The notes below the pieces were generated by a model. The model was not told the origin of the DNA. It ran no database searches and saw nothing but the letters and a program-made list of their open reading frames with translations. Of a stretch of 64,000 nt of DNA, positions 11,635-38,624 are shown in pieces; position 1 is the stretch's first letter, and each line of letters begins with the position of its first letter. Position numbers and translations under genes: made by a program. The DNA is from Chrysomallon squamiferum (lineage: Eukaryota; Animalia; Mollusca): positions 11,780,001 to 11,844,000 of the forward strand of contig CM022672.1 of the NCBI GenBank assembly GCA_012295275.1, given 5' to 3'.

Positions 11635-11636
<2 letters not shown>

Positions 11637-11684
<48 letters not shown>

Positions 11685-11724: not shown

Positions 11725-11734
11725 TAAAACAAAT

Positions 11735-12689: not shown

Positions 12690-12995
12690 GATCATGGATG
12701 GATGGACAGACTACTGGATGGATGGATTAATGGAAAGATGGATAGACAGATGGACAGTTAGACTGAATAAGAACAGATGAATGAATGGATGGATGAATTG
12801 ATAAGTGGAAAGAAAGATTGATGAATGCATGCATGTATAAATGAAAAAAATTGGTTAAATTATTAAATGAATCAATGAAAGAATGACAGATGATTTATCA
12901 ATGCATAGACTGAGAAATAATTGAAAGATGGCTGGAACAATGAATGGATAGATGGATGGATGGATAACAAGTAGTATGATGGATGGTTAGACAAA
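12690..12995. repeat. Decayed (GATG/GAAT)n microsatellite
   Basis: Repeated gatggatgga/atgaatg runs. Confidence 0.8.
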
Positions 12996-14029: not shown

Positions 14030-14710
14030 TGACAGGAGACAATCACTTAATCTGATAGCATGGAGAATTCTTTTAAACACAATCAGTTAATATCTGAACA
14101 TTCTGGACAGTCTGGTGATAGCAGTGAGAATTCTTTTAATGCACTCATTCAAAATCAACACATTCTTAAGAGCTATAACAGCATGGAGAATTCTTTTTAA
14201 GCACAGACAGTTAATATCTGCTCATTTTTGATAATTTGATAACATGGAGAATTATTTTAAAACAGTGAGTTAGTATCAGCTCATTTTTAACAATCTGATA
14301 ACATGGAGAATTCTTTTAAACACAGACAGTAAATATCTGCTCATTTGTAACAATCTGATAACACAGAATATCTGCTCTTTTTAACAATCTGATAACATTG
14401 AGAATTCATTTAAACACAGACAGTAAATATCTGCTCATTTTTGATAATTTGATAACATGGAGAATTCTTTTAAAACAGTGAGAGTTAGTATCAGCTCATT
14501 TTTAACTATATGATAACATGGAGAATTCTTTTAAATGCAGACAGTTAATATCTGCTCATTTTTAATAATCTGATAACATGGATAATTCTTTTAAACACAG
14601 ACAGTTAATATCTGCTCATTTTTAACAATCTGATAACATGGAGAATTCTTTTAAATGCAGACAGTTAATATCTGTTCATTTTTAATAATTTGATAACATG
14701 GAAAACTCTT
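14030..14710. repeat. 60-bp minisatellite, about 11 copies
   Basis: Unit TGATAACATGGAGAATTCTTTTAAACACAGACAGTTAATATCTGCTCATTTTTAACAATC, with an exact 60-bp period at 14511, 14571, 14631 and 14691. Confidence 0.95.
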
Positions 14711-17339: not shown

Positions 17340-17425
17340 ATGATGCGAGAAAAGAAACTACTACAACTTTAATTTACTCTTATCAGTTAGCAGCAATTAT
17401 ATGTACCTACCCATAAAAACAGTGA
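17340..17425 (-). mobile_element. SINE body fragment
   Basis: gaaacta...tactcttatcagttagcagcaattatatgtacctacccata. Confidence 0.5.
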
Positions 17426-18109
17426 ACAAAAAGGATTCATAAATTAGAAACAGAATCTTCTGTTATTATTCTGCTTAGTGTATTTTGTAACAAAACAGGC
17501 AGACAAACTGTTTCTCCTTGCAGTAATTTAAAAATCATGAAAGGTAATAACCAATCATTTTACAGATATCAAAACAAACCCGATCTTAAGATCAGTGACA
17601 TGAATAGCAACCTAAAAAATAATAGATTAATAATAATCTGGAGAGGTTTTCAAAACAATCTGCAACAAATTGCTTTTATGTTGTTGCAGACACCAGCCAT
17701 TACACACTGGCCCCATAAAATGAGGAAGTGTTTGTTTACAATGCAGTGTAATAGAATGTCTCACCTGTCTACCTGGCTCCAAGTCAGGTGTTTAAACATT
17801 ACCTTACCAAATAAAATAAAAAAAAACCCTTCCTTCATTGATTGCTAGATAAATAATCTTCATTAATAAAAATAAAAAATAAAAAAATAAAAATAAAGAA
17901 GAATAAAATAACATTTTAATTTTTTTTAACCTGGGTTTATTCTTTCTGCCATACATTTGATAAGGGTAGGTTTCAAAATATCTGGTTCAATAATAACAGA
18001 GTAGGCATAGAAATACCCATAATTTATCCATGATTTAATAATATATTACATTAATCAGTCAATTAATGTTACTGCATGAACTGACTTTTTGACCTGCTAT
18101 ATGAATCAT

Positions 18110-18400
18110 GTTGTGGTATACTTAGCCAAAAAGATAATGTTCAAGAAGGTTTAAGTTTAGTGTCAGTTTGATCATTTGCTTTTTAAATTTTTATGTTTAG
18201 GGATGGTATACTGAACAAAAATGATTATGATCAAGAAAGTTTTAATTTTGTGTCAATATTTTTTACTTTCTGTATAAACTTATGTTTTTGAATACTTAGA
18301 AAAAAAATTACTGAAAGTTTAGTGTCTCCATTATTTTTGAAGGGTGGTATACTGGGCATAAAAGATAAAAATAAAGATAGTATGAATAAAGTGTCAGTCA
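18110..18400. repeat. Degenerate ~60-90-bp tandem array, about 4 copies
   Basis: TGGTATACT...TCAAGAA...GTGTCA recurs. Confidence 0.65.
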
Positions 18401-19149
18401 GTTTGTTGAGGTTTTATTTTACAGCAGTTGATAAATCATTTCATTTTGGGTGAATTCAGCAGAAAGAAATATTTTATCACTGCTTTCCCATTAACAGTAT
18501 AAAAACAACAAATCAGTGTTGGTAGTATGTAAAATATTTAGTTCAAAAATGTGTTCAGGACTCCATAAACCATTCAGTTTGGATAAAATCCTTCCCTTGT
18601 GAGGTTTGGTTTTGAAAAGTCTAACTGTGTAAGTTTCCTTTAAATAAATTTTGTCCAGTATATTTTTACTGCTGTTTCCTTATCCCATCTGCCAGGTTAC
18701 ATCCTGGTTGTTCTAAGATCTGGAGATTCAGCTGTAAGCAAAATACAGGTAATCTTTTGAGCAGGGAGGGAGGTAATTCGATTAGTTAAATACATGACCA
18801 CTCTTCTGAAAAATATTCTTTTTCTTTTTTTTTCTACTTCCCCGTAAAGAGAGTAAATTCAAAACATTTGCCAGTGATTTAGATAATAAAAGATAGCATT
18901 AAAAGATATGCTGATGCATAAACTTCTACAAATTATGATGATGAAAGATAAAGTGAAATCATGCTTTAAGAAAAGAAAGAAATGGTTTTTGTAATGGTAA
19001 ATCCCCAAATGAATGATGAGTGTCTTACTTTACAAAATCAAACAAACATCCTGAAGCAAATATTTTGGGCACTGAATCATAAACCTGAGTTAAGAAGAAA
19101 ATGGAGCAGACAATATCAGAGGTTATCTGAGATGTTGTTGAATAAGAAA

Positions 19150-19325
19150 AACAGAAAGTGAATGTTTTATAACACAGCCAGATATTTAATATAAATTGTT
19201 ATTACACACAAGTCATTTGTTTCTTATATAATGAAAGAAAGACTTTGCTGCCATTAAAGAATGAGCTACTGCTACTGATAATAAATTAAAGAAACAAATA
19301 AACAAAATATTTTTGTATGCACCTT
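19150..19325 (-). mobile_element. SINE 3' part/body fragment
   Basis: gaatgttttataacacag...gctgcca...atgagctact...ttttgtatgcacc; probably the same copy as the head at 19575-19650. Confidence 0.4.
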
Positions 19326-19574
19326 ACATCTGAAACAATAATTAATTTGAAAAGTTCAACACACTTTAATATATTTAAAAATCTTTATGGTGACAGGAAG
19401 GTCTTAATATTGCCATAATTTAAACAACAGTGTCATTAATTATGTGTGTGATAAACTTTGATTTCAAAACCACAACAATAAAAAAAATTCTAACAGTACA
19501 TTGCTATTTCTTATCACTGTACAAATACATCAAAACTTTAGTGCAAAAGTTATAATGGACAATAACATTTTTCA

Positions 19575-19650
19575 TACATCAAGGAGAACTGATCCAGGGA
19601 ACTACAATATATCAGGCAAGCACTCTAACCACCAGGCTATATTCAGCTCT
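19575..19650 (-). mobile_element. tRNA-derived SINE head (degenerate)
   Basis: Minus strand reads gagctgaataTAGCCTGGTGGTTAGAGtgcttgcctga...cctGGATCAGTTC, resembling pol III A and B boxes. Similar heads occur at 51030-51220, 54215-54295 and 62840-62910. Confidence 0.55.
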
Positions 19651-19980
19651 GGAAAGGAAGAGATAATAAAAAGAGTAACTTAATCAGTGAAAACAAAAGC
19701 TGCTGTAAACACATAAAAAAAGTGCAGTAAAACCAGTTTTAAACAAAAAAGATTTGGGTTAATATGAAACATTATGCAATAACACCAGCCCATCCCATCA
19801 GTTTTTATGCATTTTTCTTCAGGCAGCTGGCTCAAGCAGACTATGTAAATATGCACACGTTGTGTTCTGTTTTACAGATTTCTAAGCTTTCTCACTATGG
19901 GAGCTGTGTTTGAGGAGAATGTTTCAAAATAATGGAGGCTGTTTTGTTTTGCATATTTGTAATTACAAAATATAAACTAA

Positions 19981-19999
19981 AGGCCACCAGAGGGTACTG
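19981..19999 (+). promoter_or_regulatory. Weaker CTCF-like motif
   Basis: aGGCCACCAGAGGGtACtg has one mismatch to GGCCACCAGAGGGCAC. Confidence 0.3.
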
Positions 20000-21235
20000 A
20001 ATATCGTGTGTTTGATAAACATCGTACGGTATACCCAGGTTGTGTTATAAACTGAATAGTTCACTTTGCTAACACAGACAGAGAATCTGGTGCTTTCAGA
20101 AATAAATAATTCATTGCTGGTTTTGAACTGTTCAGTGTTTTTTTAAAAAAGAGGAAATTTTACAGACCCCCAAAATCTCAGAAGAATACAAAATTACCAA
20201 GTTGTGCATGAATTATTGTCAGTTATTTGTGAAAAGGACAATACACATTTCCACAGTTATAAATCTCGAGATCGTGTAACAGTGTTATTAAGTCAGAAAT
20301 GATAATTAGTTTGAAAAGTTCAACACTCTTTAATATATTCAAAAAAAAAAAATCTTCATATTGACAGTAAGGTTTTTAATATTGATATAATTTAAATAAG
20401 AATATAATCTACTAATTAAAACAAACCACAAATACCACAGATATTAATTTTTGTTATAGAGAAATAAGTCTTATTATTGTATCACATATACAGATAACAT
20501 AGCCATATATAATCTGTGGTTTTACACATTCTTTTATTAGAAATAACATTATTCTATGAAAATATTTACTAAAACAAAATGGCATGCTGACATGTCACAT
20601 TTTAAAGTAAAAATATTATTATTTTCTTTATCCAAACAAATGATGTAATTTAGACTCAAATTTTACTGCTTACTTTGTCAAACAAAACATGTCAAAACAA
20701 ATACAAATTTTATTGTTTTAATTACTCAGATAATATATTCATTATCAACCAAATCCAAATAATAATTCTACTAGTACATTCTGCTTTATCCACAAAAATG
20801 CAGTGATTTAAATAGGAAATTTACTTTGTTTTATCCAGACAAAATACATTGCAATCCTTATTTGTCTGTCAGTTATAATCCACATGCGAGAGAAAAAAAA
20901 ACTAAATCAAAACAGCATATTTGGTGTACTCTGTCTGGCTGATATACTGGAGACAGGTGTGCAGGAGAGTGTGTGGGTGATTGTCATAAAGAGATAGACT
21001 GTTGACAGCATCAAATACACAACACAAAAACAGACTCTTTCATTCAGATGAGCTGTTATCCAGTCAAATGATGAAATAATAAGAGAAAAAACAAAGTAAC
21101 AGAAAGCAGAGTGCGAAAGGGATTGGATAGGGGGAAAAAGAGACAAAGAAAGAAGGAAAACTATAAAATACAAGCGAAAATGAGAGAACCATATCAAATT
21201 CTTCATGTAATACTATAAACAACATACACCCTTGT

Positions 21236-21281
<46 letters not shown>
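21236..21281. repeat. (CA)n microsatellite
   Basis: Seen directly. Confidence 0.98.
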
Positions 21282-21283
<2 letters not shown>

Positions 21284-21564
21284 AATTCTAATCCAACTTC
21301 ATTCATAATAGATTCAGTAAACATATATTTAATATTCATCATAAGGACCAAGGCATTGATTTATTTAAATAATTCATCTTTATGTACGAGAAGACGAGCA
21401 AAGTAGGCTACTAAATGTAATTAGCTAATTAAGCAAAATACTTACTGAGACATAAATATAAATTATTACTGTCTGTAAATGAAGAAGTTCAGTAATGTCT
21501 GCCAATAAATACATTAATTACATGATCAACAGAATTGCTTCGTATTGATTTGTATTTAAATCAG

Positions 21565-21680
21565 AAGAAAATGTCTTTGAAGAAAGGAATCTTTGTCATG
21601 TGTAAAACTATAAAAATTGTCTCTCTGAAGAAAGCAATCTTTGTTACATGTAAAACTACAAAAATGTGTTTTGAGGAATG
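21565..21680. repeat. ~48-bp tandem duplication
   Basis: TGAAGAAAG(G/C)AATCTTTGT...TGTAAAACTA twice, plus a partial third copy. Confidence 0.8.
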
Positions 21681-21942
21681 TTAACTTTATTTGGTGTAAT
21701 GTTAATATCAGGAGCAGATCCAGCATTTCATAAAAAGGAGAGGTTATCATTGCCGTGGATCTAACAATTTCCACTTATTAAATTGTTCCCATTAAAAAAT
21801 TTTAAAAATGTATTTTTTAACATTTTTATTTGTAATATTTATTGATATATTATTTAATTTCTTTCACTGTTTGAAACTCAAAACATTCCAAGTTAACTGT
21901 CTATTATCATTAAAACAAATTATTATTTTTATAAATATTTAT

Positions 21943-22015
21943 ATAAACTGAAATGAAAATAAAGTAAAATATGATGCTTCAAATCATATTTTACTTTATT
22001 TTCATTTCAGTTTAT
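21943..22015. repeat. Perfect inverted repeat with 33-bp arms and a 7-nt loop
   Basis: ATAAACTGAAATGAAAATAAAGTAAAATATGAT-gcttcaa-ATCATATTTTACTTTATTTTCATTTCAGTTTAT. Confidence 0.95.
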
Positions 22016-24454
22016 TTTTAATAAACACTGTCATAATAATTTTATTTAGGTATATTTTTGGAAAAACATGACACCCACCCACACACACACTCACATACAC
22101 CTACACACAAGCTATGTACACCATAGCATTAGGCAAACCATTAAAAACAGAAAACGATCATTTATCTTTCATGTGTCATACCAGACAAACTGTCAATGAC
22201 TGTAGACCAAACATACACCCAAGCCTTAACCACAGACATCTTTTGATAAATTATATTTATTCCTCAGGTGACAGATAAAACAAAATTCAGTACCATCCCC
22301 TTTTTTTCTTTCTTTTTTTTTAGTCATGTTTTTAAAAATGTGCAGTATAAAACAAAGTCAAAATATACAGCCAACTCCATACCTCCAAGCATCAATCAAT
22401 TGATATGTCTGTTTTATATCCTGCATTTCACATTGCAAGTTCCCCAGCCCTTCTCTGTGCACTCCCTGGCTTGGTGCATTGACAGTTTTATTCAGACAGA
22501 TGGCAAGGCATGTAATTTTTATTATCTTGTCTCACCATTTGATATTTTGTAAAAAGTGAGAAAATATCACAAGTTGAGAGATTAATGGAGCCAGCACAAA
22601 TAGGTGTTGGGTCACATCACTGGACCGACGCTGTTGACACGACGTTGCTCTCGTTGTAGAAAATGTTATCTTCTAGCTTCTCGTTCTAGCACAAAACATC
22701 TGCTGATCACAGACAGACTGAAGGACGGATGTCCAGCAGAATATAAAATGTCGTAAAACTAATTAGGAATATTAAACTATATAAAATTAACTAGGAATAA
22801 CCTTTTTTTCTTTTTCTTAAAGTAGTGACATCTTTAGATTATATGTTTTAAAGAATGCGTATATAACAAAATATGTAGCTATTTATAACTAACATGAATA
22901 GATTGATTTTACAGTATTACTTTTAGACTGTATTTTATTTTTATATAAATGAAAATCTACTGAATGATGCACAACAGAAAAACAGATATCATAGCTTTGA
23001 TTTGTTTTGATTCTATATTTATAAATGAAGGCCTTCATGTTTTTTGTTTGTTTTTTTGAATTCATTGTGGTGAATTATCATGATGAAAAGGCTCATTCAT
23101 GGAGCTTTTAAGCCAAACTCAACTGCAGTTCCATGTAATGAAAATAACTGATTTGATTAGATATATAATTCATATATGAGATTTAATAATAATCTGGCAT
23201 TTAAATAACTTTCTTTGATTTGTTTTCAAAAGTTGAAAAATTGTATTTTACTTATTATTCATTTTAAATTTAAGTTAAAATATATATATATATATATGTA
23301 TATAAAGTTATTATTACAGAGTGAACAGATGGTATATAATGAAATCATTAACTACTTAACAAACTTCATTTATCTTTGTTTTCCTCTGACAGTGTGTACG
23401 TTTGTCAACATCAGTTTCTAATATCAACATGATATTTTTAAATATCCCTCATTTGTCACTTCTAATCAAAAAATAAAATTAAAATTAAAAAAGTAATAAT
23501 AATAATAATAATAATAATTTTAAAAGTCCCTAAAACATGAAAATGTAAATATCTTTGGTCATGCTCTAGTTATTGTAAGGGAAAGTGACATATTGTTTGA
23601 AACAAAATAATCAATATCTGTCTTGTTGACAGTATCTCACTCTGTATACTGAACACCAGCTGAGATGATTCATTTGTAGTACCAGTCAATAAAAAATGGA
23701 GGATTCTAACAATGACAGGAGCATTATAAATGTTATAGTGAAGTAATTACTCCTCTTGACTTCTTCTTTTGTTAGAAAAGTTAAGAAATTTATTACTTTT
23801 TCGTCGCTGTTGTTTCTGTTTTTATAGCATTGTTGTAATTATAATAACAATAATGATTTTTATTAGCGTTATTGCTGTTATTGTTTTTATTGTTATCATT
23901 ACTTTTGTTATTGCTATTATTATCATGGTTACTGTTATTATTATTATTACAGTGATTAACTCATGTATGTAAGATAGAATATACTTTTACTATTTAGCAT
24001 TAAACAAAATAAATATTATCAAAACATGGTCACAGTACATAAACATTTATAATGAAATGCTCTTAACCATTTTTCAAATACTTCTATGTACAAAATACAC
24101 TATATCTTTTAATTTTTCTTTTTAATATTTAATTACAAAAAAAAAAATTGTTTTAATAATATAATAACTTATTTTAAAACACGGTCACTTTTCATTAACT
24201 TTTGTTATATAGTACTAACAGCTGTACTGCAAACACCTTTTCATACAAAACATAACAATTTTTCTAAAAACCCACATTTTAATATTGCAATCCATTATTT
24301 AAAAACATGGTCACGATTCATCTACCAATATCCGACAACCAACAGCTGAACCTTTTATTGTTACCAATATTCTCTCTTAAGTATTCATATATTACATATA
24401 ATCCACTCTTTCAAGCTGACATGCTGGTACAATAAATAAGAATAAGAATAATAG

Positions 24455-24875
24455 CACCTGAGATACATATTTTTATATTAACCACTTGGTAAATATTGAC
24501 CAGACAATCATTTCACAACTGAGACATGTATTTTATATATTAACCACCCAGGATATATTGGCCAGCCTATTATTTCACAGAATATCGCCTAAGACATATA
24601 TTTTTTTATTAACCGCCCAGAAAACATTGGCCAAACTATGAATTCAGATCTGAGATACCTATTTTATATTAACCCCACAGCATATATTGGCTAGACTCAT
24701 TTCATTCCAGAGATATAAATTTTATATATTAACCCCATAGAATATATTGCCTATGCTATCTTTAAACACCTGAGAGATATATTTTATATTTGGACTGGAC
24801 TACAGTTTCACACCCTGTGAGATATCTATCGTATTGAACACCCAGCAAATACTGGCCAGAACATCATTTCACATA
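24455..24875. repeat. Degenerate ~60-bp minisatellite, about 7 copies
   Basis: CTGAGATA...TTTTATATTAACC...ATATTGGCCAGAC...ATTTCACA recurs. Confidence 0.85.
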
Positions 24876-24931
24876 ACAGTAAGTGTGTGACTGATCACTT
24901 TCACAGAATCGATAATAGAAAATGATTCACT

Positions 24932-24950
24932 CGTCACCAGGGGGCGCTTT
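24932..24950 (+). promoter_or_regulatory. CTCF-type binding motif
   Basis: cgtCACCAGGGGGCGCttt matches the CTCF core CACCAGGGGGCGC. It is GC- and CpG-rich within a ~30% GC background. Confidence 0.6.
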
Positions 24951-26044
24951 ATCAGATCTTCAGGCGATGTAGGTCTTTTCAGGTGTCACTACACCACTAT
25001 GCATGATAATTTAACACAATGGGTTATTGATTTATCAGAAATAATAAATAATCACCGGCCATTCTCCCAGGTCCATGGCAGTACAATGGCCTATGACTTT
25101 TCTAATGGTATGATTGAAAAGTGCTGTATTTTATTACTATCATCATCGGTGAAGAATGGAAATTTATAAATGATTTAACAAAGGTGGGATTTAAAAAAAA
25201 ATTAATAATAATAAGGGAAAATGATGGTGGAAGAGAAAAAAAGGGTCTGCTGGGACTTGTTCTAATTAATAACAAGGTCTGCCCTGAGGCATGAAATATA
25301 AATGATGGTCAACTGTAAAAGCCTAGTGAAAACGAAAGATATAAAAGATATTTTGTATTAATCTATTTTTGTGTATTTTATCATATTATTGTAATCTTAT
25401 TTACATACTTTTAATAAAGCAAAAACAAAATTGAGTATAGTTCGATGCATGATGTATGTATGTATGTATGTATGTATAAATGAATGACAATATGTGTGTA
25501 TAAACAAGTTTATGTATGTTAGTGTATATGAGTATCTATCTGTGTATATATATCTAAGTCTTTACACATGAATGTATGTTTTCAATACTATTTTATTAAA
25601 ACAAATACACAGATTTAAAACAGCCGCTGTACAAAATTCCGTCGTGAATCTGAAAACTCCACAAACAGTGGATCTACAGATGTCAAGCTGTCCATGGGCA
25701 AACACAGGCTTGTTGAATGGGTGCAAATATTTGTACATTGTGTGATAAAGAGCAATCAAACACAACATTTACTGACAGGTGTTGGCTGTTCAGATCATAA
25801 AACTTAAGCTATGTGTGACAAGGGTTCAAACTGGCCTCTTCACCGCTGATATACCAGTGTTGAAATCCCCAGAGTTTGCTGTGTAATGCAGGCCTAACAA
25901 ATTATGACGCAGACTGATAGAGAGTGTCATGCCACTGATAAGCACATTAATGCACAAACGCTGTGGCACGTCCTCTTTAAGAATCCACTTCACTCAAACA
26001 TTCCTCAATGGTGCTGTGCATATCAGTCTTTTATTCTTGTTATT

Positions 26045-26086
<42 letters not shown>

Positions 26087-26239
26087 TTTTAAAAGAGGTT
26101 TAATTTATACACAATCTTCCTAAATAAGATTACATTAACAGTTGTGCTGTTCCCTGTAGTATTTGTGACAATGTAGCCATATTCTGTAAAAACAGTGGGA
26201 TTAACTTTCAAAATCTTGTACTGCTTAAGATGAACACAT

Positions 26240-26880
26240 AAACATTTGAACATACTAGTAATATATTTATGAACATGAGAAACCTGGTAAAAAGATGACA
26301 TCATTTAACTGTAATTCATCTCCCTACCTCTCTTGTTTTGATAAAATCTTTCATACAAAATATGACAAATCTTTAACATACTATACACATTAAGATATAA
26401 GATAAACCCACACATACATCAGTACATAATGTTAGTATTATAACAAATACCCTGTAATTTATGGACACCACAAATGTGGTAAGATAATATCATTTCACTG
26501 GAATACATCTCTCTAATTTTGTTTTTGATAAAATCTTCTGTATAAAATGTCACTGTTGTACAAAACCACTACACTAGCCAAGAACAACAAAAATAAACTC
26601 AACAGTGTAAGTGTGTTAACAATACACCAGTAATTTATGGACAGGAGAGATGAGGTAAGGAAGGGATTCTGCAATAAATTTGTCCACATCTCTGTAATAT
26701 CTTTTACATGGGTCTAGTTTTATCATCTTCTATGGCAACATGTGACACATCTACAAAACAGTATGCTGGCTAAGATAAACATACACTCACACACACACAC
26801 ACACACACAACAGTATGTATTAAGTGCATATCCTAACAACAGGGCAGTAATTTATGGACACCAGAAAATGTGGCATGGAA
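26240..26880. repeat. Degenerate ~180-210-bp tandem array, 3-4 copies
   Basis: GTAATTTATGGACA at 26454, 26630 and 26847; TTTTGATAAAATCTT occurs twice. Confidence 0.75.
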
Positions 26881-27042
26881 AGAGACACACAAGTACTACA
26901 TGCATAAAGTGTATAAAGAAAATGCTGTCTTCAAAGACATTTGCTTCATGCCTGTCTTGTCTCATTAATCACTCACAACAGTAAATTAGCAGTGTGTCCA
27001 TGGTGGATCCATTAAAGAGAAGACTGCCGCACCGAATCCTAA

Positions 27043-27225
27043 CTTACGAGGTGAACACTGGCTGCAAATGACCTCCTTGGGTCATCCCAGGACATCAAGG
27101 GTATGTACACAAACATTCATGTAGATGGTATCGGACATGTGTTAAAAAGCGTGCTTGAAGATTTGACAGTTTGCTTTAGAAGTTTTGTTAACAGGGATGT
27201 TTTAGTCTTGAATATGAAAAATTAA
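27043..27225 (+). mobile_element. Penelope-like reverse transcriptase fossil
   Basis: The frame reads LTR*TLAANDLLGSSQDIKGMYTNIHVDGIGHVLKSVLEDL, resembling PLE RT motif A (DilvSfDVkSLYTNIPv). Stops lie upstream. Confidence 0.55.
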
Positions 27226-27854
27226 ATAAAGGTGGATTAAAGCTGGGTAGTAAATAACAATAAATAATATAAAACCATGATAAAAAATTAATAATAAAAA
27301 ATTAAATGTGATGATAATAAATTAGCAATTACAACAAGAATTTTGACAACAATAACATTAATATTAATAAGAATAATAATAAATGCAATAATAATAATAA
27401 TAATAATCATGCAATGCTGAATCAAATAATGAATATCATATGACAGAAACAAATTCAATTACTTGGACATCTCAAGACAATTATTTATTTAATATGGAAA
27501 AAAACAAATAGCCAAATGGTAAAAATGTAACAAAATTTATTTATTTATTTATTTACTTATTTTAAATACTATTTTATTTAATTTCCTGTAGTTTAAGAAT
27601 AGGAATGGTGATTTCTACACAACAGATCATTGTTTTGTTTTGGCAGCTGTCAACATGAATTGAATATCCCAGTATAACTATCAAGGGCAGTATCAAGACA
27701 AATTCAGCACATGTTCATTTACTGTTGTTACACTGGGAGTGAGACTTGTCATTATCACAATAAAAGAATGAAAAAAATGACTTTTAAAACACGTGTGGTT
27801 GAAACAGAAGATATAACAGATGGAAGATTATTTGTTCTACAAACAGAAGTATTT

Positions 27855-28315
27855 TAATCATGTATCCAACAAATGGAGGCATTGCAATAAAAAAATCTTG
27901 CATATAAAAGCATTTTTATCATACATTTTGTAGATGTAGGTATTTCAAAATATATCTTGTAATTGTAGATACTTTCTTCATACATTTTGCATTTGTGGAT
28001 ATTTTGTCTGTACATTTTGCAAATGGATGAATTTTCATCATACATGTTGCAGATATACAAACGTGGACATTTTCATCACACTAACAAATATAGGCATTTT
28101 CATTATACATATTGGGTTAATTGGAGGATTTCAATTAAATAACTTGCAAATGAATGTATACTGATCACATATTTTCCACACAAAGGCACGTTCGTCATAC
28201 ATCTTGCAAGTGGAGAAACTTTTATCATATTTAAGTATCTTATATCTCTCAAAACAGAGACATTTTCTTCATACATGTTGCAAACCGAGGCATTTCGGTG
28301 CATTTTTGCTGCACA
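27855..28315. repeat. Degenerate 30-bp minisatellite, about 15 copies
   Basis: TCATACATTTTGCAAATGGAGGCATTT-like unit; TACAT(T/G)TTGC at 27981, 28011 and 28041. Confidence 0.8.
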
Positions 28316-30276
28316 CACCAGATTCTAAAGTTACCAGATCCCAATGATAATGACATGAAATAAGCAGCGTTATAAAATAAACATGCTTTGTAACATAAAC
28401 ATGCTGGTGGGTAATGTAAGAAAAGTGTCATACAATCAACAGCTGCTGGTGAATGTTCAGTTCAATCTATATTAAAAGGATAGAGTTCGCAGAACAACTG
28501 CACATGTCAAAAAATGGCTACAGATGTGGAGACTGAGAAAGAAATCAATATTAATGTTCTGTATGAATACTTTAACAAATGTTTATTATCTGAATTAGAT
28601 TTTGTTGATATTTTTTTTGTTTCGTTTATTGGCGTATGTTTATTTTTAAATATACATATATGTTTTTGTTCTTACTTTGATAAGTTTAGGTTTGTTTTCT
28701 CTTTCGTTTCCATTTATAAATATAACATTTTAAGTAAATAAATTTAATTGGACTGTCAATATTTCTTTGAAAAAGACTTCATGAAGATCTTAACTAGCAT
28801 ACTGTGTAATTTTAAATATAGAATTTATTTTAAAATAAATGAAATACATTTAACTAATATCTTTAATACTTTGTGAGACTTCCCAGGATCATAATTAGAT
28901 GGTGAGCCTGTCAAAACACTTTACATTAAATGAAATATCTCACAACTGAAAAAACTTCACAAAGATGTAAATTATTATGCAGTATTTTCTTTAGACTAGA
29001 TTTTATTTTTATATAAATGAAAATGTATTGAATGAAATTTGGTTTTGCAAAAGACAGTTTTCAGTAAATGATCTATATTTCAATTTAACAATTAATGCTT
29101 ATGCAAATAAATAAATAAAAATTTATAATACTTAATTTTTATTGTTATTATTATCATTATCATTATTACACAAGGTAGCACTTCATCTTTTTTTTAATTT
29201 TTTTAAATAAAAGATGTATATATAGAAATAAGTAATGACCAAGTCAAAAGAATACACCTTTAACTCATCAGACATCAGGATTACTAGAGATGCTAATTAA
29301 TCTCTTCCTAATGTTACTAGTTAGGAAAGCAGTTTGTATCTCTTACACTGTAAATTAAATGACTGATAGTGACTACAAAGCAGGCCTGGGGTTAGAAAAA
29401 TTAGTGTGCTAAAATATTAACTGTCTAGTGATATATTACTCTATGTCACCTTCTAGAATTTTATTTATTTATTTTTTTTAAATTATCTTTCACTGAAAAT
29501 TCTAACTGAACCAAGTATCTGTAGGCCAGTTTGTAATACTAACCATCAGGTTAGTTAGTATGTTAAGATGCTGGCTAATAAGTGACAGACAACTGTGTGT
29601 GTATGTATTTATATATGTATGTATACATGTATGTATGTATGTATGTATATAATACATGTACGGGTGTGTGTGTCTATGTATGAATGTATGCATGTAGCTA
29701 TATATCTATGCACTGGTTTGATAGCAACTTTCTCCACATGATCAAAGAGATCCTGTTAATACGTACATCATCAGCATTCATTAGTGGCTTTCACCAGCCT
29801 CTCCTCCTACCAGCCAGTCAGGAATCTTAGCATCGTCAACATCAACATAACACAACGCCGCTGTTAGAAAAAGTCTCATTCTAAACAAACACACAAACAA
29901 CACTACTGTTACAAAAATTTCTAAATTAACTCAGACAACACTCCTGTTACTAAAATATTCCTTTTGCACTCCTTTCTAAACTAAGTTAGACGTCAGTCCT
30001 CTTACTAAAACAGTATTTTCTGTATTTATTCACTGATTTAGCAGTTTATTTTGAACTGGTATCAATTTGTTTTATCTCTGTACTGGAGTATTAAACATTT
30101 TTTTTAATCAGAGTGCAAAAAGCTTAATTCTGATAGGATTTAATGAAGTTCTTAAAATAAAGATTGCATAATGGTTTAGTCATCATAAGGCTGTAATGAT
30201 AATGCTGTTATCTACTCATTTCAGATACAAGTGTTGGTTGAAGATTTGTTTAGATATGAATATAATTTTTTATATC

Positions 30277-30495
30277 AACCTAAAATGTCATAATGTAGCA
30301 TTGGTCTAAGATATTATATTATAGCACTGACCTAAGATGTCATATCATAGCACTGGCCTAAGATGTCATATTGTAGTATTGGCCTATTATGTTTGATTAC
30401 AGAAGTTACCTAAGATGTCACATTATAGCATAAGATGTCATATTATAATATTGGCCTAAAATGTCATACTGCAGCATCAACATGACATCATACTA
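30277..30495. repeat. 26-bp minisatellite, about 8 copies
   Basis: CCTAAGATGTCATATTATAGCACTGG; starts at 30331 and 30357. Confidence 0.9.
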
Positions 30496-30504
30496 ATATG
30501 GATA

Positions 30505-30710
30505 AATCATTGGAGGAGTGGAGTGACATGGCAGAGGTTGTAGGATCAATTCTGTTCAGTTCTGTCATTATGTTACTTTTCTGTTTTTGACAAGAATGTA
30601 TGCAATGGATGTATCAAATGGTATCAGTGGCAAATGGTTTCCTGACTTCTGAAAGGTAAAATATATAAGGTCCCATGCTGCTGAGTGACAGCACAGTGAG
30701 TTTCCTTTCT
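30505..30710 (+). mobile_element. Degenerate SINE copy
   Basis: ggttgtaggatcaattc (B-box-like)...ggatgtatcaaatgg...tttcctgac...atatataaggtcccatgctgctg. Confidence 0.5.
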
Positions 30711-33700
30711 CATTTCATTATCAGCTGGCTAACCAATTCTTTTCAGATCTTTGTATAAAGGATGCCTTGCTGCAATGTTCCCATCAAAGAACAAAGATTT
30801 GCTTTTTCATGGTCTAATATTAATGAGATAACATTAAATAATCCACCTGTAAATCAACAAAAAAACACCTGCAACAAAGCACTTTCGTTCTTTTAATATT
30901 ATTTTCCATCTATTTTTCCTTCTCTCAATTAACAGGCATTTATTTAGTTACTGCAATACAAGAAATAACACTCACTTTAATTGCTTCAAAATAATGATCA
31001 TTATTTTTTCTTTCTTTCTTTCTTTAACTGAAAATTTCAGATTCTGGTACAAATGCACCTGTCTGTATTTAGTTTCAACACCTAACAATTGAAGAAAACA
31101 AATAAAATCATTGAACATGTCAAGTGATTGTGAATCTATCCATTTATGGCATGTTGAATAACAACAGTTACGAACACTGGGGTGATAATTTAAAAAAAAT
31201 AATGACAATAAAATAAAAGTGAATATAATTCATGTTGCTATGTGTTTTATATAACAAGTGGTTTTATTATAAACAAACAAGAAAGATAAAAACACAGCTG
31301 AGTAATTTTGAATGTAGAAAAAAATAAAATAAATGTCATGTAATTTTTTTTTAATTTTTATTACTGGGTACCTTATATTCTTGAACACCTGTCAGAATTT
31401 TGTCTTTCCCTTCTGTACCTGTAGTGTCTGTTTTCGTGGTCACAATAAAATGAATTATAACAGAATCCCTGGAGTATTGTACGATGTTTTCATCAGTTCT
31501 GTACAATGCCTGGATACCATCTATTTTTACAAAACTTAATATTTAACCTCTCAAATTTCTTCAGAAACAGCAATAGTGGTCATAATTATGAATAATTTCT
31601 ACCTAGATTATCATGAAAAAAAAAAAAATCATATGTATGAAATCAGAAATATATTCTATTTATTGTCCAATTTTTTACATTTTTTTAAAGTTACTCATTT
31701 ACATTGCTATACAGAAAACTCCCACAGTATCATTCCATTATTAAAAAAAACCAGAACCAATTTTACTTTCACTCTTCAGACTACATAGATATATATTTTT
31801 TTATGTGCAACACATGGCCACTGGGCTAATGTGCTGATGTGGATTTTTATTGAACAGTCAACCGAGTGTGAATGACTTCTGAAATTTAACGACAGAAGAC
31901 TTATCTGTGCCTTGATATAAAGCAGGAATATAAAATAAAGTAAAGAAGCCGTGACGACATAATAAAGAATATCTTGTAGGAAAAGCAGTGTGCAGGTTTA
32001 ATGAGCTGAATTACACAGATAACTCTGATGTCTGTTTTAGCCCACACACTGGTGCTGATTTTGTCTTGTAATTTACCACAGGGGAAAAGCCGTCTAACAT
32101 CTTTACTTTAACACTGAGCATAATACTGTCAGTTTTTCTAAACAAGTAATTACTGATCAAGAACACTAAGAGAGAGAGAGAGAACAAAAAAAAAATGTTC
32201 TTGTAAGAAGATATATATTTTTTAAAAATAGGAGTGACTGTAAGAGATGTTTGTGTAATGAAAAGTGAAAAAAAGATTTGGGGAAAAAGATCACTGATGC
32301 CATAATTTTAAATGATAAGAATTTGTAAATTAATTAAATTAAGTTATCCAGTGCATGGGGAAGCTGAAAATTTGGCTAAAACCACATGTGTCTGAATTTC
32401 AAAGCAAAATACTTCTGTGTGGAATAAATATAACCATAGTTACCAGTACAAAATTGATGATTATGTTAGTTCAACAATAAAAAAAACAACTCTGGTACAT
32501 CCAAGCAATAAATGTAACTATAGTTACCAGCTCAAGAAAACACAATAACATTAGTTAATGTTTGGTTATAAAGTCTGCTCTAGTACTTTTCCAGATCTGC
32601 ACGTAGCAGACAGTGTCTATTCTGTGTGAACAAAGGATGTTAACTGACTGTAAAGTCCAGTCATTTCTAGCACTTCTGCACATTTAAACATTTACAGTGT
32701 CTGTGTTTTAAATGAACAATGGCTGCTAAGAGATGCTCAGACTTGGAAGATCTATTATCACATCATTCTCCGACAAGAGCTCTTAAAGGAGAGATAACTC
32801 TGTTCACAAAACTCTAAATCTTTCGTGGAGCTTTTTAACAAAACAGCAAGAAAAACAACACAAATAAGTTACCAATTCGTACCTACCACTGACAGGAAAA
32901 TAACCAAAAACTATAATGGTGTTAAACTCCTTCATAAATTGATCGAGACCTGTTATTAACAAATTTGTTTAAAATCCCTCATTTAATTTATTCAGTATTT
33001 ATTAACAATAAAAATTAACAATCTGAAATATGTTTACATCCTCTGATGATGCAAGCTGTTTAGTTATGTAGTTCAGAGTCTTCTTGGGTAGTCTGTACAT
33101 AACTGTTAGTGTGTTAGTATGTTAGAAGACAAGTTAGTGTGTTAGAAAATAAGTTAGAATGTTACAAGGTAAATTAGAAAGTAAAGCGCATGTCCTGGTC
33201 TTAAAGTGCCCCAAAAAGGTCTGGTTTCAATTTTTTTAAATCAAGATTTGATCCAAAAACCTACAAGTGTTCAGGCCAGTGGCTTAACCAATGTACACCT
33301 AAACAGTGTATTGATTATGAACAAAATACAGATATTTCTGTAATAGCTACTCTGCATTATTTTCACATTTGTGTCTATTAAATGTCTGATTTATGATTTG
33401 AAAATTACAAAGCAGTAAATCTGAATTTTCTGTAAATGGTTAATCCTAGATCCCTAATTTATGTTTATTTTTTAACCAGCTTTGCAAAAGTTAGTCACTG
33501 TGACCTTTCTGGTATTAGGTCAGTATGGTCTTCTGTTTTTTAAATTCCATTGATATATGTCAAAACACAGACAGAGTATGACCAATAGCCAGAAACAGAC
33601 ACACATACAAATACAGACAAATATATACACAGATAACCACATACACACATGCACCCTCTTACACACTTACACAAACACACCCTTACACACTTACACAAAC

Positions 33701-34039
33701 ACACACATTAAAAACACATATACAACCCAGAGTCAACTTGAGAAACACTTAATGAATTTAGGAAAATGTTTTTCCACTTTTTTTTTTTCTCGCCTACTGC
33801 CACTGTAACAGATCACCTGCCAGTTGGTTATATCCTACTACTTAAAGAGCTTTCAAACAACTATTTTAAATTTCACACAGGTATTCTGAATGTTCCACAC
33901 CCTCATCTCACTGTTATCTGATGAGCCCAGGATGCTTTTTGTTTGCATGTATTGTCAGTATGTATAGCTATTTGCATGTAAAACCAAAAGGCTTAGCTAT
34001 GGCTCCAACATCAGAATATTAGTCTCAGGTATGATAAGC

Positions 34040-34200
34040 CACAAGAACAGGCCTCAGTGATGAAATTATCAGTGGAATTTTATTATGCCCAAGGCAGTGG
34101 TTGCATCAAATTTGTTAAAGGGTGTTAAGGACATTGCTGTCCATGAGAAGGTTCTTATTATAAATCACTTGCTGCTATTCAATAAGAGAAATTAATGAAG
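34040..34200 (+). mobile_element. Degenerate SINE copy
   Basis: ctgtccatgagaagg...tataaatcacttgctgctattc resembles the 9298 copy. Confidence 0.4.
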
Positions 34201-36399
34201 TGCTGGTAATTTTGTTGAGATTTTATTAAATCTTCAATGATTCATTCTGTTCTTTTGCTGCTGTATTTTGATGATTCATTTATGGTCCATGAATAATTCT
34301 GTTATATAAAACACAGAAACATAAAATCAAAATGATACCAAGTAACAAATCATTACCTCATATCTTCTTAATACAACTGATAAAACTGAAGCAAAATAAC
34401 AGTCAGTAATATTTCCCATACAACACATTTTCTACCTCTTCACTTTTTCTCCATTTTTTTTCTTTTATATTATTGTAATAACAAAAAACAATACAAAACA
34501 AAACATCCACAATTACTGACAAATATTTAGCTTCCCAAGAATAACCTTGAAATAAACTCTGAAAATAACTACGAATGTGCACCATACCAGAGGTAATGAG
34601 TTTTTCTTTTTCTCACTAATATCAACACACAGTTTTTAAAATGCTATTTCTTCTAATTATTATCTTGACACACAGAAACCTTAAGTTTTGTATAGCTGTC
34701 CTTAATTTTTTATTTCTTTTTTCGCTGTTGTAGGGGTAGTAAGAAAGTAAGTTAAAAATACTTTAAAATGTTAGCAAGAAAGAAAGATAAAATCCTGAAT
34801 TTTATATGAACAAATTTAAAATTGACTGCTGCTGATTAATTTTTTTTTCTTTTTTTAAACATGGATTCAAATGACATTTGAAATTAAAATAAACCTAATG
34901 AAAAGAAAAGAAAAAAAAAGATTCTGTCTCTCACTTTCTGAGATTTTTTAAATGGGAGTAGGATAAGCAAGGTAGGTTTTAAGCATTTTCAATTCCCCTG
35001 AAGAATTATTCAACATAATCCATGGGTGGCCATGGATTATAGAAAGGAGTCAGTCTGCATATGCACAGCTTTTTCATTTTTGAAAACATTTTCTTTTCTT
35101 TTTTTTTTTGCCTCCTACAGACAAAATGCTACTTTATTTTCATTTCTGAAATATTTTCTCAGTCTGTTTCTGTCTGGTTTTTCTGCAGTTGTGTTTTTTT
35201 TTTGTGTGTGTGCGTTTTTTTTTTCTCTTTTTATTTCTTAATGGATTTTTACATTACTCATACATTAATGGCCCAGTCAATTAATGAAATGCCAGAAGAG
35301 AATACCTCATTAAGTGTTAAGTCATGTGAAATCAGATAACAAGGATTTATTTAACTTTTATTTAAAAATATCCAGATTATTTCAACTCACTATCAATCAA
35401 GAACTGTTGATTTATTTGGGGATTTAAATGGAATTTCATTTTAATTTTTTTTTAGTCCATTTTTTTATTTTTGTTATGGGGGTATTAGCATGTGTTCATT
35501 TTAATTTTTATATAAAAAAAAAATATATAATTTATTTATTTATTATTTTTGTTTTGTTTTGTTTTGTGTTGTCTTGTTTCAAGTTCCATTTTTAAAATTT
35601 TGTTATAAACTATAATTCCTCTAAATAGGATGTCTGGTTGAGTTAAAGAAGTTGATGAATGGATACTAATCTCTTTGGGGTCATTTCTATATTTCTAGTA
35701 CCCAGAAATAAAAAATTATCAGGGTAAGTGATTTTTTTTTTACTTGTACTTTTACCTTAAATGTCCTTCCACAAAACATTTCTGTGTGATGAATATGTGA
35801 ATGTGTTTGAAATATGACAACTTGTGTGCATATCTGCATGCATATGCATATGGTTGTATGTGCATGCATTTGGGTATTTAGTGGTTCAACCAGTAATCTA
35901 ACTTAATAATTAAATGTCAGTGGTAGTCATGGCTTCAGTAGAAAAAAAAACTTTATTTAAAAATTCTAAACATTTTCTCTGAATTAAAATTAAAGTAATC
36001 TGAGAAAGTAATCATGTATGAGAAAGTAATCCTAGACTTATCTGTGAGACAGAGCAAGGCTGACTACTTGATCAACAGAGCAATATTTGTTCAATACTTC
36101 AACCACTGACTATTACCCAACATAAAACAAAACTCTTTCTCATTAAAATAACTTTTGAAAACACTCAGTTAAATCTATTGTGAAAAGCAAACATCCTATA
36201 AGACATGGGGGTCAGTGTTTTCTGTTTTCACAGGTGTGAAACTGTGACTATCCCTAAGCAATGAGCCTTTGGTCTATTGCTGACTGAATTACCCCATAGA
36301 AGATTTCTTTACAAGTCAGAAGCCACAAATTTCAAACAGTACAAATGGCCTCTGAAGTTACTCAATAACAAAAACAGTCAGAAATGAGGCAATATTTGT

Positions 36400-36805
36400 T
36401 TCTGCATCCTGTCTATTGTATTCCATCCTGTCTGTTCTGTTCCATCTTCTGTTTTGTTTCCAGTCGTGTGCTGTATTCATTATCTCCATTCTGTTTGTTT
36501 TTCCCCATTCTGTCTGTTAGTTATCTGTTATTTCTTATTTTATTTGTTGGTTCCCAGTATCTGTTATTTCCCATTCTGGTGTATTCTTCCCATTATATGT
36601 TATTTCTCATTCATTTGATTATTTCCTGTTATTTGCTAGTTCATATTCTTTATGTCATTTTCCATAATCTGCTATATCTCATTATCTTGGTTTTTTTTCT
36701 CATTATTGTTTATTTTCCAGTTCTGACTGTTGTATCCCATGCTGTCTACAGTATACCTTTTCCCCCCATTCTGTCTGTTGTTGGCCATCCTGTCTGTTGT
36801 CTCCA
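36400..36805. repeat. Degenerate 36-bp minisatellite, about 10 copies
   Basis: TATCTGTTATTTC-like motif at 36522, 36558, 36594, ~36629 and ~36665. Confidence 0.75.
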
Positions 36806-37576
36806 TAGCAACAGGCTTCAGGAATCTCAAGCCAATTGGAGGGACAACGGAGATAAGTAGATGCAGAGATAGAAATGCTTTCCACCTTGTTTGCTTTGTA
36901 AGATATGACAGTGATTCTTCAAGGCTTTCTGGTTAACAGAAATGAGATGGAGAAGGAAGATTGCATAGCTTGACAATGCACATGCAAACAGTGTGTCCCT
37001 ATTATCTGCAGCAGACATTTCTTTTTCGTTTAACACAATCACTGTTGTATGATGTGTTAATGTCATCACTTCCAGAAGCATGACATTGTGCTAGTGGTAT
37101 GCTGATAAACCGATACAATTCTGTTATGATACTGAAGAAAATGTGACTTAATTTAACCTCTTTCGTGGTGGGGCTTAAGAAAAAAATGTTTGCACATACA
37201 ATCAATATATTATGCAAATACTAGCACCATTTTCAACTAATCTTATGATATATAATCACTATTTTCATTTAATGTTGTAAAAAAAAATCATAATTTCGAA
37301 CTATGGGTTTTGAATAGAAAATAATGCCATTTTCAGCTGCTACCATTTTGAAATGCTGTTGCAAATACAATCACTGAATTTGACTAACACTTTTAATACA
37401 AACACTATTTACAACTACTGTTGTGAATAAAATCATTTTTATCAACTAGATGCAAGTACCATTAATATATATGTGTGTATTTTATTTCTACTAATGTTGG
37501 ATATTAAGAAAATCAACACATTACTTGATATTCTTCAACTCAAACATAAGACACTGATGATTCAGCAGAAGAGACA

Positions 37577-37610
37577 ACTTACCTGAAAATAGAGGAAAAA
37601 AATAATTAAA
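37577..37610 (-). other. Recursive splice site (ratchet point): 3' acceptor directly followed by a consensus 5' donor
   Basis: Minus strand reads tttaattatttttttcctctattttCAG|GTAAGTtg, with the junction between 37583 and 37582. It is on the same strand as the DDR exon. Confidence 0.72.
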
Positions 37611-38624
37611 ATTATTTTGTAGGTAAAACAGATTAATACAGTTTAAAAGAACACATTTATAAAATTGTATAATAAAAACAAGGTAAAAATTTTATAATGT
37701 TTTCTATAAAAATCTGTCAATTATTAAATTACTTCAGTTATGGCACTATATACATTCAGTTGTGTTAAAATCATATTAAATGGAAAATGAAATAATAATA
37801 ATAACAATAGTAATTGTATCAATATCAATTATATATCTCTCTTTACAGTAAGAATGATTGAAGAAACATAGTCACATGCTTTAAGAAACAAGATTTTAAA
37901 ATTTGTATAGCATTTATACAGCCTTCTGAGAGAGAGAAAAAAAATGTTAAATTATTTATTTTAGTTTTCTCTAGGTTAATTCTGAAACTCATTAATTAAT
38001 TTTAAAACTACCAATAAACAGCCACTCTAATGAACTGCCTACAAAAAGAGAATGATAAATAAAATAACACACATGTTGACTGATCGATACAAAGTGAGAA
38101 AAAAATGATCCAAAGATCTCAGTTTTATTACATCCCTACACACCAACATGTAAACTAACATAAAATTATCTCTCTGTGTTTTACCAGGCAGACAAAAAAA
38201 AAAAGTCTCTGAAATAATTTTACAATTTTAGCTTTTCTGACTAACACCATTTACTGCAAACATCGTGACTGACAATATTAGTAGGCAAATGTTCTGACTG
38301 GACAGAATAACAGATGTACTGACTGAATGTGATCATCAGCTAATGTCTAATCAGTCATGATTTACCACCGACTTTGACAGACACTCATAGATCTTGTTAC
38401 AATCTGAAGGAAGTCAGAGGCAGTCCACAAAATGCTAAGGGAGAGGAACGTTATAACTCCCTCAGTCTTATTAATTCCCTCCTTTGAATTAGATCATCAG
38501 TTGTTGTTGTATTTTTTTTTTTTAATTATTTATTCCATTAGAAATTTCACATAACACACCCATTTCATGTATACTTTATTGTGATATAACAAACTAATAA
38601 CTAAATTACATATATAATGTACGA

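What the first reader, a model, noticed from the sequence alone, without database searches (positions are those of the whole stretch)
37577..37610. Candidate recursive splicing (ratchet point) in a giant intron of an invertebrate, probably molluscan, DDR gene
Seen: on the DDR-sense strand a strong acceptor (tttttttcctctattttCAG) directly abuts a perfect donor (GTAAGT), 28.6 kb upstream of the discoidin exon. It was the only polypyrimidine-YAG|GTAAGT I found on either strand, and it does not lie in a recognised repeat. Known: this AG|GT 'zero-length exon' is the hallmark of recursive splicing in long Drosophila introns (e.g. Ubx) and some long vertebrate neuronal genes. Inference: this intron is removed stepwise. 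I am not aware of recursive splicing being characterised in molluscs/lophotrochozoans, so this could extend the mechanism to another lineage.
Basis: partly seen in the sequence, partly recalled or inferred. Interest (0 to 1): 0.82.

Follow-up and report, generated by a model that had tools for sequence, protein, structure and literature searches.

The report
Snail intron likely cut in steps
Inside what is likely a very long intron of a snail collagen-receptor (DDR) gene sits a back-to-back intron-end/intron-start signal, and RNA from three samples covers the DNA downstream of it but not the first kilobase upstream, so the intron is likely cut out in steps as in flies, a route we did not find described for molluscs.

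Summary
The motif is real: on the minus strand, acceptor CAG (37585-37583) abuts donor GTAAGT (37582-37577), 28,566 nt upstream of a discoidin exon matching gastropod DDR (34 of 36 residues). It ranks first of 253 AG|GT sites. It has a 17/20 pyrimidine tract, TT at -6/-5, a branch candidate at -24, no other AG for 119 nt and a weak donor 58 nt downstream. Chance gives about 0.002-0.08 per strand, depending on stringency. RNA contigs from three runs of one study cover 26 of 26 bins downstream and 0 of 3 upstream; two stop 26-27 nt from the donor, while a control run passes through. That step fits a recursive splice site, but no junction contig was seen, strand is unknown, only 1 kb upstream was examined and the upstream exon is unidentified. 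Best reading: a functional ratchet point (0.7). Rivals: an internal transcript start, an antisense end, or chance. The mechanism is known from flies and vertebrates, and motif enrichment from sea urchin; our searches found no mollusc report. This scan noted similar motifs before in octopus, annelid and urchin DNA, mostly without RNA. New member of a known kind.

The parts
37583..37609 (-). Acceptor half of the site: branch-point candidate TTAAT (A at -24 = 37606), pyrimidine tract (17 of 20 at -24..-5), TT at -6/-5, CAG at 37585-37583
   Evidence: sequence
37585..37703 (-). AG-free zone of 119 nt before the acceptor AG (18 of 1732 minus-strand YAGs have 100 nt or more; median 12)
37577..37582 (-). 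Donor half, GTAAGT; with the preceding CAG a 9 of 9 match to the recalled MAG|GTRAGT consensus
37525..37582 (-). Candidate cryptic RS-exon, 58 nt, closed by a weak donor CAA|GTAATG (6 of 9) at 37524; would shift the frame if included. Inferred; an equally weak donor lies at 123 nt (37459)
   Evidence: size expectation of about 50 nt from PMC8605326 passage
30500..37556 (.). RNA-covered stretch downstream of the site (as far as examined): 25, 20 and 14 of 26 bins in runs X1, X2, X3; outermost contigs end at 37556 (X1) and 37555 (X3)
37557..38600 (.). Stretch without any RNA contig in X1-X3, spanned by a 3110-nt contig of run X5 (kind not on record, DNA-like flat depth 43) up to 38492
9017..37582 (-). 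Predicted last segment of the recursive intron, 28,566 nt, ending at the acceptor ...ttcttgttgcag of the discoidin exon
   Evidence: inferred
8911..9016 (-). DDR exon, 106 nt, start of the discoidin domain (DECRNALGMQSG...), phase 1 start, phase 2 end; the only DDR exon detected in the window

Best explanation
The minus-strand CAG|GTAAGT at 37583/37582 is likely a recursive splice site that would let a probably over-55-kb intron of a snail DDR gene be removed in at least two steps. Shown: the fused acceptor/donor sequence, its position on the DDR strand 28.6 kb upstream of the discoidin exon, and a step in RNA-contig cover at the site. Inferred, step 1: the upstream exon (probably the signal-peptide exon, not found in the window) is spliced co-transcriptionally to the CAG, using the branch candidate at -24, perhaps helped by definition of a 58-nt cryptic exon; this removes the upstream segment soon after it is made, so RNA just upstream of the site is scarce. 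Inferred, step 2: the join recreates a perfect donor, which outcompetes the weak donor 58 nt downstream and splices to the discoidin exon at 9016, leaving no trace in the mRNA. RNA downstream of the site persists until the polymerase has run another 28.6 kb, which would explain the dense cover there.
For: Sequence: top of 253 AG|GT sites, 119-nt AG-free zone, 17/20 tract; TT at -6/-5 and branch candidate at -24, matching 196 of 197 fly ratchet points and the -36 to -21 branch window (10.1101/006163); segment of 28.6 kb within the fly range 2.6-63.6 kb. Chance 0.002-0.08 per strand. RNA: some depth in 26 of 26 downstream bins against 0 of 3 upstream bins across X1-X3 (Fisher p 2.7e-4, bins not independent; 22 of 22 against 0 of 3 outside the search query, p 4.3e-4), in the direction a minus-strand saw-tooth predicts. 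X1 and X3 contigs end within 1 nt of each other, 26-27 nt from the donor, the only such pair among 279 listed end pairs (0.2 expected somewhere). X5 spans the empty stretch. Two of the three empty bins have ordinary GC, 0.32-0.33 against a downstream median of 0.30. Listed pieces alone cover 46, 26 and 21% of the downstream stretch against ceilings of 18, 14 and 10% if the runs' contigs were spread over a genome of X5's size, so plain DNA carry-over is a poor fit. Context: no signal-peptide exon found in the window; the summed TA+GC skew of the minus strand upstream of the site is 0.047 [0.011, 0.085], the same as downstream, 0.046 [-0.001, 0.092]. Weak hint: the longest stretch free of listed substitutions in X5 (588 nt) spans the site (p about 0.015; 34 of 43 differences listed).
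Against: No contig joins any exon to 37582 and none covers 37557-37582 in 3 of 3 RNA runs laid (the bin depths are fully explained by the contigs that stop there), although nascent intermediates should carry the junction at about the depth seen next to it. No decline in depth over the 7 kb downstream (rho -0.02). Only 1 kb upstream was examined. Contigs are unstranded, all three RNA runs come from one study, and the tool rates a stop without a loose end as at most a weak hint even for two studies. Some downstream depth comes from repeat fragments (17 of 38, 12 of 21 and 2 of 9 records only partly fit), and the union of listed full-length pieces has an 811-nt gap downstream against 1,044 nt or more upstream, so the p-values overstate. 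The first 234 nt upstream are only 18% GC. The contig ends fall on a sense ATCAGT, which resembles an initiator (recalled). The upstream exon was not identified (laid nothing). Skew in 50001-64000 is not different from zero. The cryptic-exon donor is weak and not distinctive (3 donors of 6/9 within 300 nt).
Confidence: 0.7

Rival explanations
1. An internal start: a minus-strand transcript begins at or near the site (initiator-like ATCAGT at 37558-37553, or a very short first exon that uses GTAAGT as an ordinary donor), so RNA exists only downstream. The acceptor-like sequence would then be incidental.
For: X3 ends on the A and X1 on the C of TCAGT; no RNA upstream and no junction contig. An edge shared by two runs suits a fixed 5' end.
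Against: No raised depth or loose end marks a spliced first exon among those shown (contig depth 5.46 against a mean of 4.98; 183 loose ends not shown). The match to the recalled fly initiator TCAKTY is imperfect and was noticed after the fact; no TATA box or DPE by eye. CpG o/e at the site is 0.17-0.21, like the window's 0.23. It leaves the strong acceptor and 119-nt AG-free zone unexplained. Standard second-strand synthesis usually loses the very 5' end (own knowledge), so the true end probably lies a little upstream of 37556.
Confidence: 0.11
2. The motif is a chance match and the RNA step has another cause: the 3' end of a plus-strand transcript (ATTAAA at 37605, AATAAA at 37671), dropout in very AT-rich DNA, or a low-depth gap.
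For: Loose-class motifs are expected up to 0.08 times per strand and the scan reads very many windows. Contigs are unstranded; depth is only 2-6; 37583-37816 is 18% GC; an 811-nt gap exists among listed pieces downstream. Plus-strand poly(A) signals lie 50-115 nt beyond the ends.
Against: Needs two coincidences (best motif of 253, edge within 27 nt of it). No plus-strand gene found: 0 of 136 open frames reach a Pfam cut-off, and no Rfam hit in 10000-64000; short exons would be missed. The empty stretch continues through normal-GC bins and X5 crosses it.
Confidence: 0.12
3. The acceptor is real but opens an ordinary or alternative exon that starts with GTAAGT (an expressed RS-exon or 5' UTR exon, 58 or 123 nt), kept in some DDR mRNAs.
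For: The acceptor is at least as strong by eye as the true acceptor of the discoidin exon; downstream GT candidates exist; expressed RS-exons are described in flies and mammals (PMC8605326 passages).
Against: Contigs run straight through both candidate donors at intron-like depth, with no joint or loose end listed there. A 58-nt exon would break the frame. Only one tissue set was seen.
Confidence: 0.07

Closest known systems
Drosophila intronic ratchet points (Ubx, kuz, osp, fz, luna; Duff et al. preprint 10.1101/006163, whole text read; Pai et al. PMC6110457, passages and part 1 of 11 of S1 table)
   Same: Juxtaposed YAG|GTRAGT, strong pyrimidine tract, TT at -6/-5, branch candidate in the -36 to -21 window, long developmental-gene intron, segment length in range, RNA step at the site.
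   Different: Fly sites are defined by exon-to-site junction reads plus a full saw-tooth; neither was obtained here. Host is a gastropod. Fly Ddr was not found in the Pai tables under recalled identifiers, so orthologous use is not shown.
Cryptic RS-exon model of fly and mammalian recursive splicing (Joseph et al. PMC8605326, passages)
   Same: A weaker donor about 58 nt downstream of a perfect regenerated donor, out of frame, as donor competition would require.
   Different: The downstream donor here is weak (6 of 9) and not more than chance; inclusion on donor loss is untested.
RP-site enrichment in large introns of invertebrates (Shepard et al. PMC2773006, passages with Table 2)
   Same: Same motif class on the sense strand of a large intron; reported ratios 8.2 in sea urchin, 21.7 fly, 4.0 bee, 8.0 beetle, with background about 0.07-0.12 per 100 kb.
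   Different: That survey included no mollusc or other lophotrochozoan and had no RNA; here one site with an RNA hint and no genome-wide count.
Human recursive sites in very long introns (as tabulated in Hoppe et al. PMC10156609, passages)
   Same: YAG|GT with pyrimidine tract; saw-tooth criterion.
   Different: Saw-tooth-defined human sites are few and lie in introns of hundreds of kb; vertebrate large introns show little motif enrichment (ratios 0.9-1.5).
Gigantopelta aegis DDR2-like (XP_041368248.1) and other molluscan DDRs
   Same: 34 of 36 residues identical over the exon; Haliotis rubra 28 of 36.
   Different: Only one exon is in the window, so the full gene is not reconstructed; human solved-structure hits rank neuropilin above DDR, so the DDR call rests on the molluscan match.

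Membership tests
Recursive splice site (ratchet point) | Juxtaposed strong 3' and 5' splice sites around AG|GT | tested here: met
   CAG|GTAAGT, 17/20 tract, first of 253
Recursive splice site (ratchet point) | TT at -6/-5 and branch point about 21-36 nt upstream | tested here: met
   TT present; TTAAT candidate with A at -24; branch use itself not shown
Recursive splice site (ratchet point) | Lies on the sense strand inside a long intron | tested here: inconclusive
   Same strand as the DDR exon; no upstream DDR exon found in the window (best local score 40, shuffled mean 41); skew alike on both sides; upstream exon not identified
Recursive splice site (ratchet point) | Saw-tooth read density that resets at the site | tested here: inconclusive
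   Step present in the right direction (26 of 26 against 0 of 3 bins), but no gradient over 7 kb, only 1 kb upstream, one study, unstranded contigs
Recursive splice site (ratchet point) | Junction reads from the upstream exon into the site | tested here: inconclusive
Recursive splice site (ratchet point) | Lariat that starts at the site's GT | not testable with these tools
   No raw reads were offered; contig ends 26-27 nt from the GT are compatible but not proof
Recursive splice site (ratchet point) | No site-derived sequence in the mature mRNA | tested here: inconclusive
   No exon-like depth or joint listed downstream of the site; mRNA junction at 9016 not seen (laid nothing)
Recursive splice site (ratchet point) | Conserved in related species | not testable with these tools
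   No relative's genome on hand; the one metagenome match is a chance 22-mer; within-species hint only
Cryptic RS-exon type | Weaker competing donor about 50 nt downstream | tested here: inconclusive
   CAA|GTAATG at 58 nt, 6 of 9; two more of equal score within 300 nt
DDR receptor tyrosine kinase gene | Discoidin exon closest to DDRs | tested here: met
   3 of 3 hits at E<=0.01 have the DDR domain set; best 94%
DDR receptor tyrosine kinase gene | Linked transmembrane and kinase exons | not testable with these tools
   Not in the window; no genome held

The most novel reading that the evidence does not exclude
[quoted passage not shown] With flies, vertebrates and the sea-urchin motif enrichment, it would make stepwise removal of long introns an ancestral bilaterian practice. 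If the shared contig edge 26-27 nt from the GT marks a physical RNA end, the second-segment intron would persist after excision and dominate the signal, so that ratchet points could be mapped across unsequenced phyla from public RNA contigs alone.
Probability: 0.45. Interest if true: 0.6.

Novelty: new member of a known kind. Interest (0 to 1): 0.45.

Why it matters
Recursive splicing is established by RNA evidence in flies and vertebrates and suggested by motif counts in other insects and sea urchin. Lophotrochozoans are the large gap. A used site in a snail would support one ancestral mechanism for long introns across bilaterians rather than separate inventions, and gives a defined target for a one-day RT-PCR. 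The mechanism itself would not be new.

Tried and rejected
No whole genome is held, so genome-wide sense/antisense counts were impossible. Within the window 4 of 4 [C/T/A]AG|GTRAG matches are on the minus strand, too few to count, and three lack a tract. Searches for the upstream signal-peptide exon failed: tblastn with three DDRs, donor-anchored scoring against five N-termini (best 33) and six-frame alignment of the G. aegis N-terminus (best 40, shuffled mean 41, self 236); signal peptides diverge, so this is moderate evidence only. No protein with this exact exon was found. The attempt to lay RNA on the exon gave no data, which leaves open the identity of the upstream exon and a positive control for the step at a true splice site. 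Run X4 (share 0.07) was never laid. A 22-nt exact scan of metagenome contigs gave one match, L001, which agrees only over the seed and lies in an open frame, so rejected as chance. RNA editing as a strand marker was rejected: T>C exceeds A>G in X5 as well. Eight joints have sides of 20-27 nt, occur in X5 and lack splice ends; treated as repeat artefacts. The expected-count column carried a spurious factor of 4; one search replaces it. Pfam missed the exon itself. Fly Ddr was not found in nine Pai supplements under recalled identifiers; one supplement store gave no answer, and the bioRxiv supplement with the Duff site list was not seen, so fly Ddr is unresolved.

Full report
Observation. The minus strand reads ...tttacctacaaaataattttaattatttttttcctctattttCAG|GTAAGTTGTCTC, with the junction between 37583 and 37582. 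Seventeen of the 20 bases at -24..-5 are pyrimidines, the previous AG lies 119 nt upstream (18 of 1732 minus-strand YAGs have 100 nt or more), bases -6/-5 are TT, and a TTAAT branch candidate has its A at -24. It ranks first of 253 AG|GT sites on my score and is the only YAG|GTRAG with a tract of 15 or more in 20 on either strand. Expected counts on the minus strand are 0.0023 for the strict class and 0.075 for the loose class; Markov strands gave the strict motif in 0 of 154 and 0 of 145 trials. No tandem array overlaps it.

Host gene. A 106-nt minus-strand exon at 9016-8911 encodes DECRNALGMQSGKIPDEAISASSSYDQSEVGPENAR. Three of three hits at E<=0.01 carry the DDR domain set; the best is Gigantopelta aegis DDR2-like, 34 of 36 residues, against 28 for Haliotis rubra. 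G. aegis is a peltospirid gastropod, so the window is probably from a related snail (inference). The exon starts in phase 1 at residue 43 of the G. aegis protein, so a signal-peptide exon must lie upstream. It was not found in the window by three searches, which suggests an intron longer than 55 kb containing the site, but signal peptides diverge and this is not proof. No other gene was detected: 0 of 136 open frames of 62 residues or more (frames over 25% tandem repeat and those near 9.3-10 kb left out) reach a Pfam cut-off, three giving sub-threshold hits, and Rfam finds nothing in 10000-64000. The summed TA+GC skew of the minus strand is 0.047 [0.011, 0.085] upstream of the site and 0.046 [-0.001, 0.092] downstream, but 0.014 [-0.033, 0.059] in 50001-64000; reading this as transcription-linked skew rests on my own knowledge and is a weak hint.

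RNA. A search with 36650-37700 returned five runs: four metatranscriptomic RNA runs of one study and one run of unrecorded kind from another, all held as contigs. I laid three of the four RNA runs and X5 on 30500-38600. X1, X2 and X3 have depth in 25, 20 and 14 of the 26 bins downstream of the site, together 26 of 26, and in 0 of 3 bins upstream (Fisher p 2.7e-4; 22 of 22 against 0 of 3 when bins in the search query are dropped). The straddling bin's depth is fully explained by an X1 contig ending at 37556 and an X3 contig ending at 37555, 26 and 27 nt from the donor G. X5 crosses the empty stretch with one 3110-nt contig at flat depth 43, and shares the RNA runs' alleles, so divergence does not explain the gap. 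Two of the three empty bins have ordinary GC. Listed pieces alone cover 46, 26 and 21% of the downstream stretch, against 18, 14 and 10% if each run's contig letters were spread over a genome the size of X5's contigs; this uses X5 as a stand-in for genome size. The direction of the step is the one a minus-strand saw-tooth predicts (10.1101/006163).

Results against. No contig joins an exon to 37582 and none covers 37557-37582 in 3 of 3 RNA runs. Depth does not fall over the 7 kb downstream (rho -0.02), though only about a quarter of the segment was seen. The contigs are unstranded, shallow and from one study; 17 of 38, 12 of 21 and 2 of 9 records fit only in part, so some bin depth is repeat-derived; 183 loose ends and 355 pieces were not shown. 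Among listed full-length pieces the longest downstream gap is 811 nt against at least 1,044 nt upstream, so the p-values overstate the step. The first 234 nt upstream are 18% GC. The contig ends fall on a sense ATCAGT that can be read as an initiator (recalled consensus) or a second CAG, and plus-strand poly(A) signals lie at 37605 and 37671.

Mechanism. The best reading is two-step removal. Inferred: the upstream exon is spliced to the CAG while transcription continues, which clears RNA just upstream; the join recreates GTAAGT, which outcompetes the weak donor CAA|GTAATG 58 nt downstream and splices to 9016. A cryptic exon of about 50 nt, usually out of frame, is the fly pattern (PMC8605326 passages); 58 nt would shift the DDR frame. 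The stop 26-27 nt short of the GT would fit a physical 5' end at 37582, as in an excised second-segment intron, with the usual loss of terminal bases in library making; this is my inference and an internal start would look similar. I put the ratchet point at 0.70, chance motif with another cause for the step at 0.12, internal start at 0.11 and an expressed exon at 0.07.

Within-species hint. The longest run without a listed substitution in X5's contig is 37439-38026, which spans the site; p is about 0.015 for a gap that long among 34 uniform differences, but 9 of 43 differences were not listed.

Known systems and literature. Duff et al. (10.1101/006163, whole text) define fly ratchet points by junction reads, AG/GT and saw-tooth, with TT at -6/-5 in 196 of 197 and segments of 2.6-63.6 kb. 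Shepard et al. (PMC2773006, 12 of 19 passages including Table 2) report sense-strand enrichment of 8.2 in sea urchin and 4-22 in bee, beetle and fly, against 0.9-1.5 in vertebrates, with no lophotrochozoan sampled. I saw passages of PMC8605326, PMC6110457 (supplement search, list, part 1 of 11 of its site table) and PMC10156609. Searches for a mollusc report, seen as listings only: 'recursive splicing' with 'mollus' gave 2 papers with one mention each, on other subjects; with 'octopus' 0; with 'snail' 8, 7 listed, none about the animal by title; searches showed none among the rows listed (30 of 11,996 and 15 of 6,801 for the two broad ones). The library lacks most subscription journals, so this is not proof of absence. 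Earlier notes of this scan report similar motifs in octopus, annelid and urchin DNA; they are unchecked and I did not test them. A look-up for a snail case with an RNA step found none, and none near this place.

Verdict. Observation confirmed; interpretation likely but unproven. It works like a fly ratchet point by sequence and by a coverage step; membership is not established without junction or lariat reads. New member of a known kind; interest 0.45.

Noticed in passing
window 37553-37558 (minus): The RNA contig ends of X1 and X3 fall on the C and A of ATCAGT, which is both a second CAG 26-29 nt after the site (preceded by a short pyrimidine run) and an initiator-like motif.
   Followed up: partly
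window 14049-14712: A 60-bp minisatellite of about 11 degenerate copies inside the DDR intron.
   Followed up: no
window 9381-9438 and 10732-10789: A 58-nt inverted pair, 84% complementary and partly non-microsatellite, 1.3 kb apart, about 0.4-1.8 kb upstream of the discoidin exon's acceptor; could be the ends of a small element or an RNA stem.
   Followed up: no
window 57276-57702: Overlapping open frames on both strands with low-complexity acidic, His and Lys/Arg/Ser runs; sub-threshold Pfam hits only. Possibly a decayed transposon fragment.
   Followed up: partly
window 38001-40000 and 58001-62000: CpG observed/expected rises to 0.44-0.53 against 0.23 for the window; could mark young repeats or regulatory DNA. 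The first lies just beyond the RNA-empty kilobase.
   Followed up: no
window 30500-38492: Runs X1-X3 and X5 share many substitutions against the assembly (43 in 2910 nt for X5), so the assembled haplotype differs from theirs by about 1.5%.
   Followed up: no
window 8905-8910 (minus): The true donor of the discoidin exon is GTATTT, much weaker than the site's GTAAGT, although it opens an intron of at least 8.9 kb.
   Followed up: no
whole window: Runs of 12 or more A on the plus strand outnumber runs of T by 18 to 9, so the DDR sense strand is richer in U runs.
   Followed up: no
L001 5001-5022: A chance 22-nt match to the site inside an open frame of a marine metagenome contig.
   Followed up: yes
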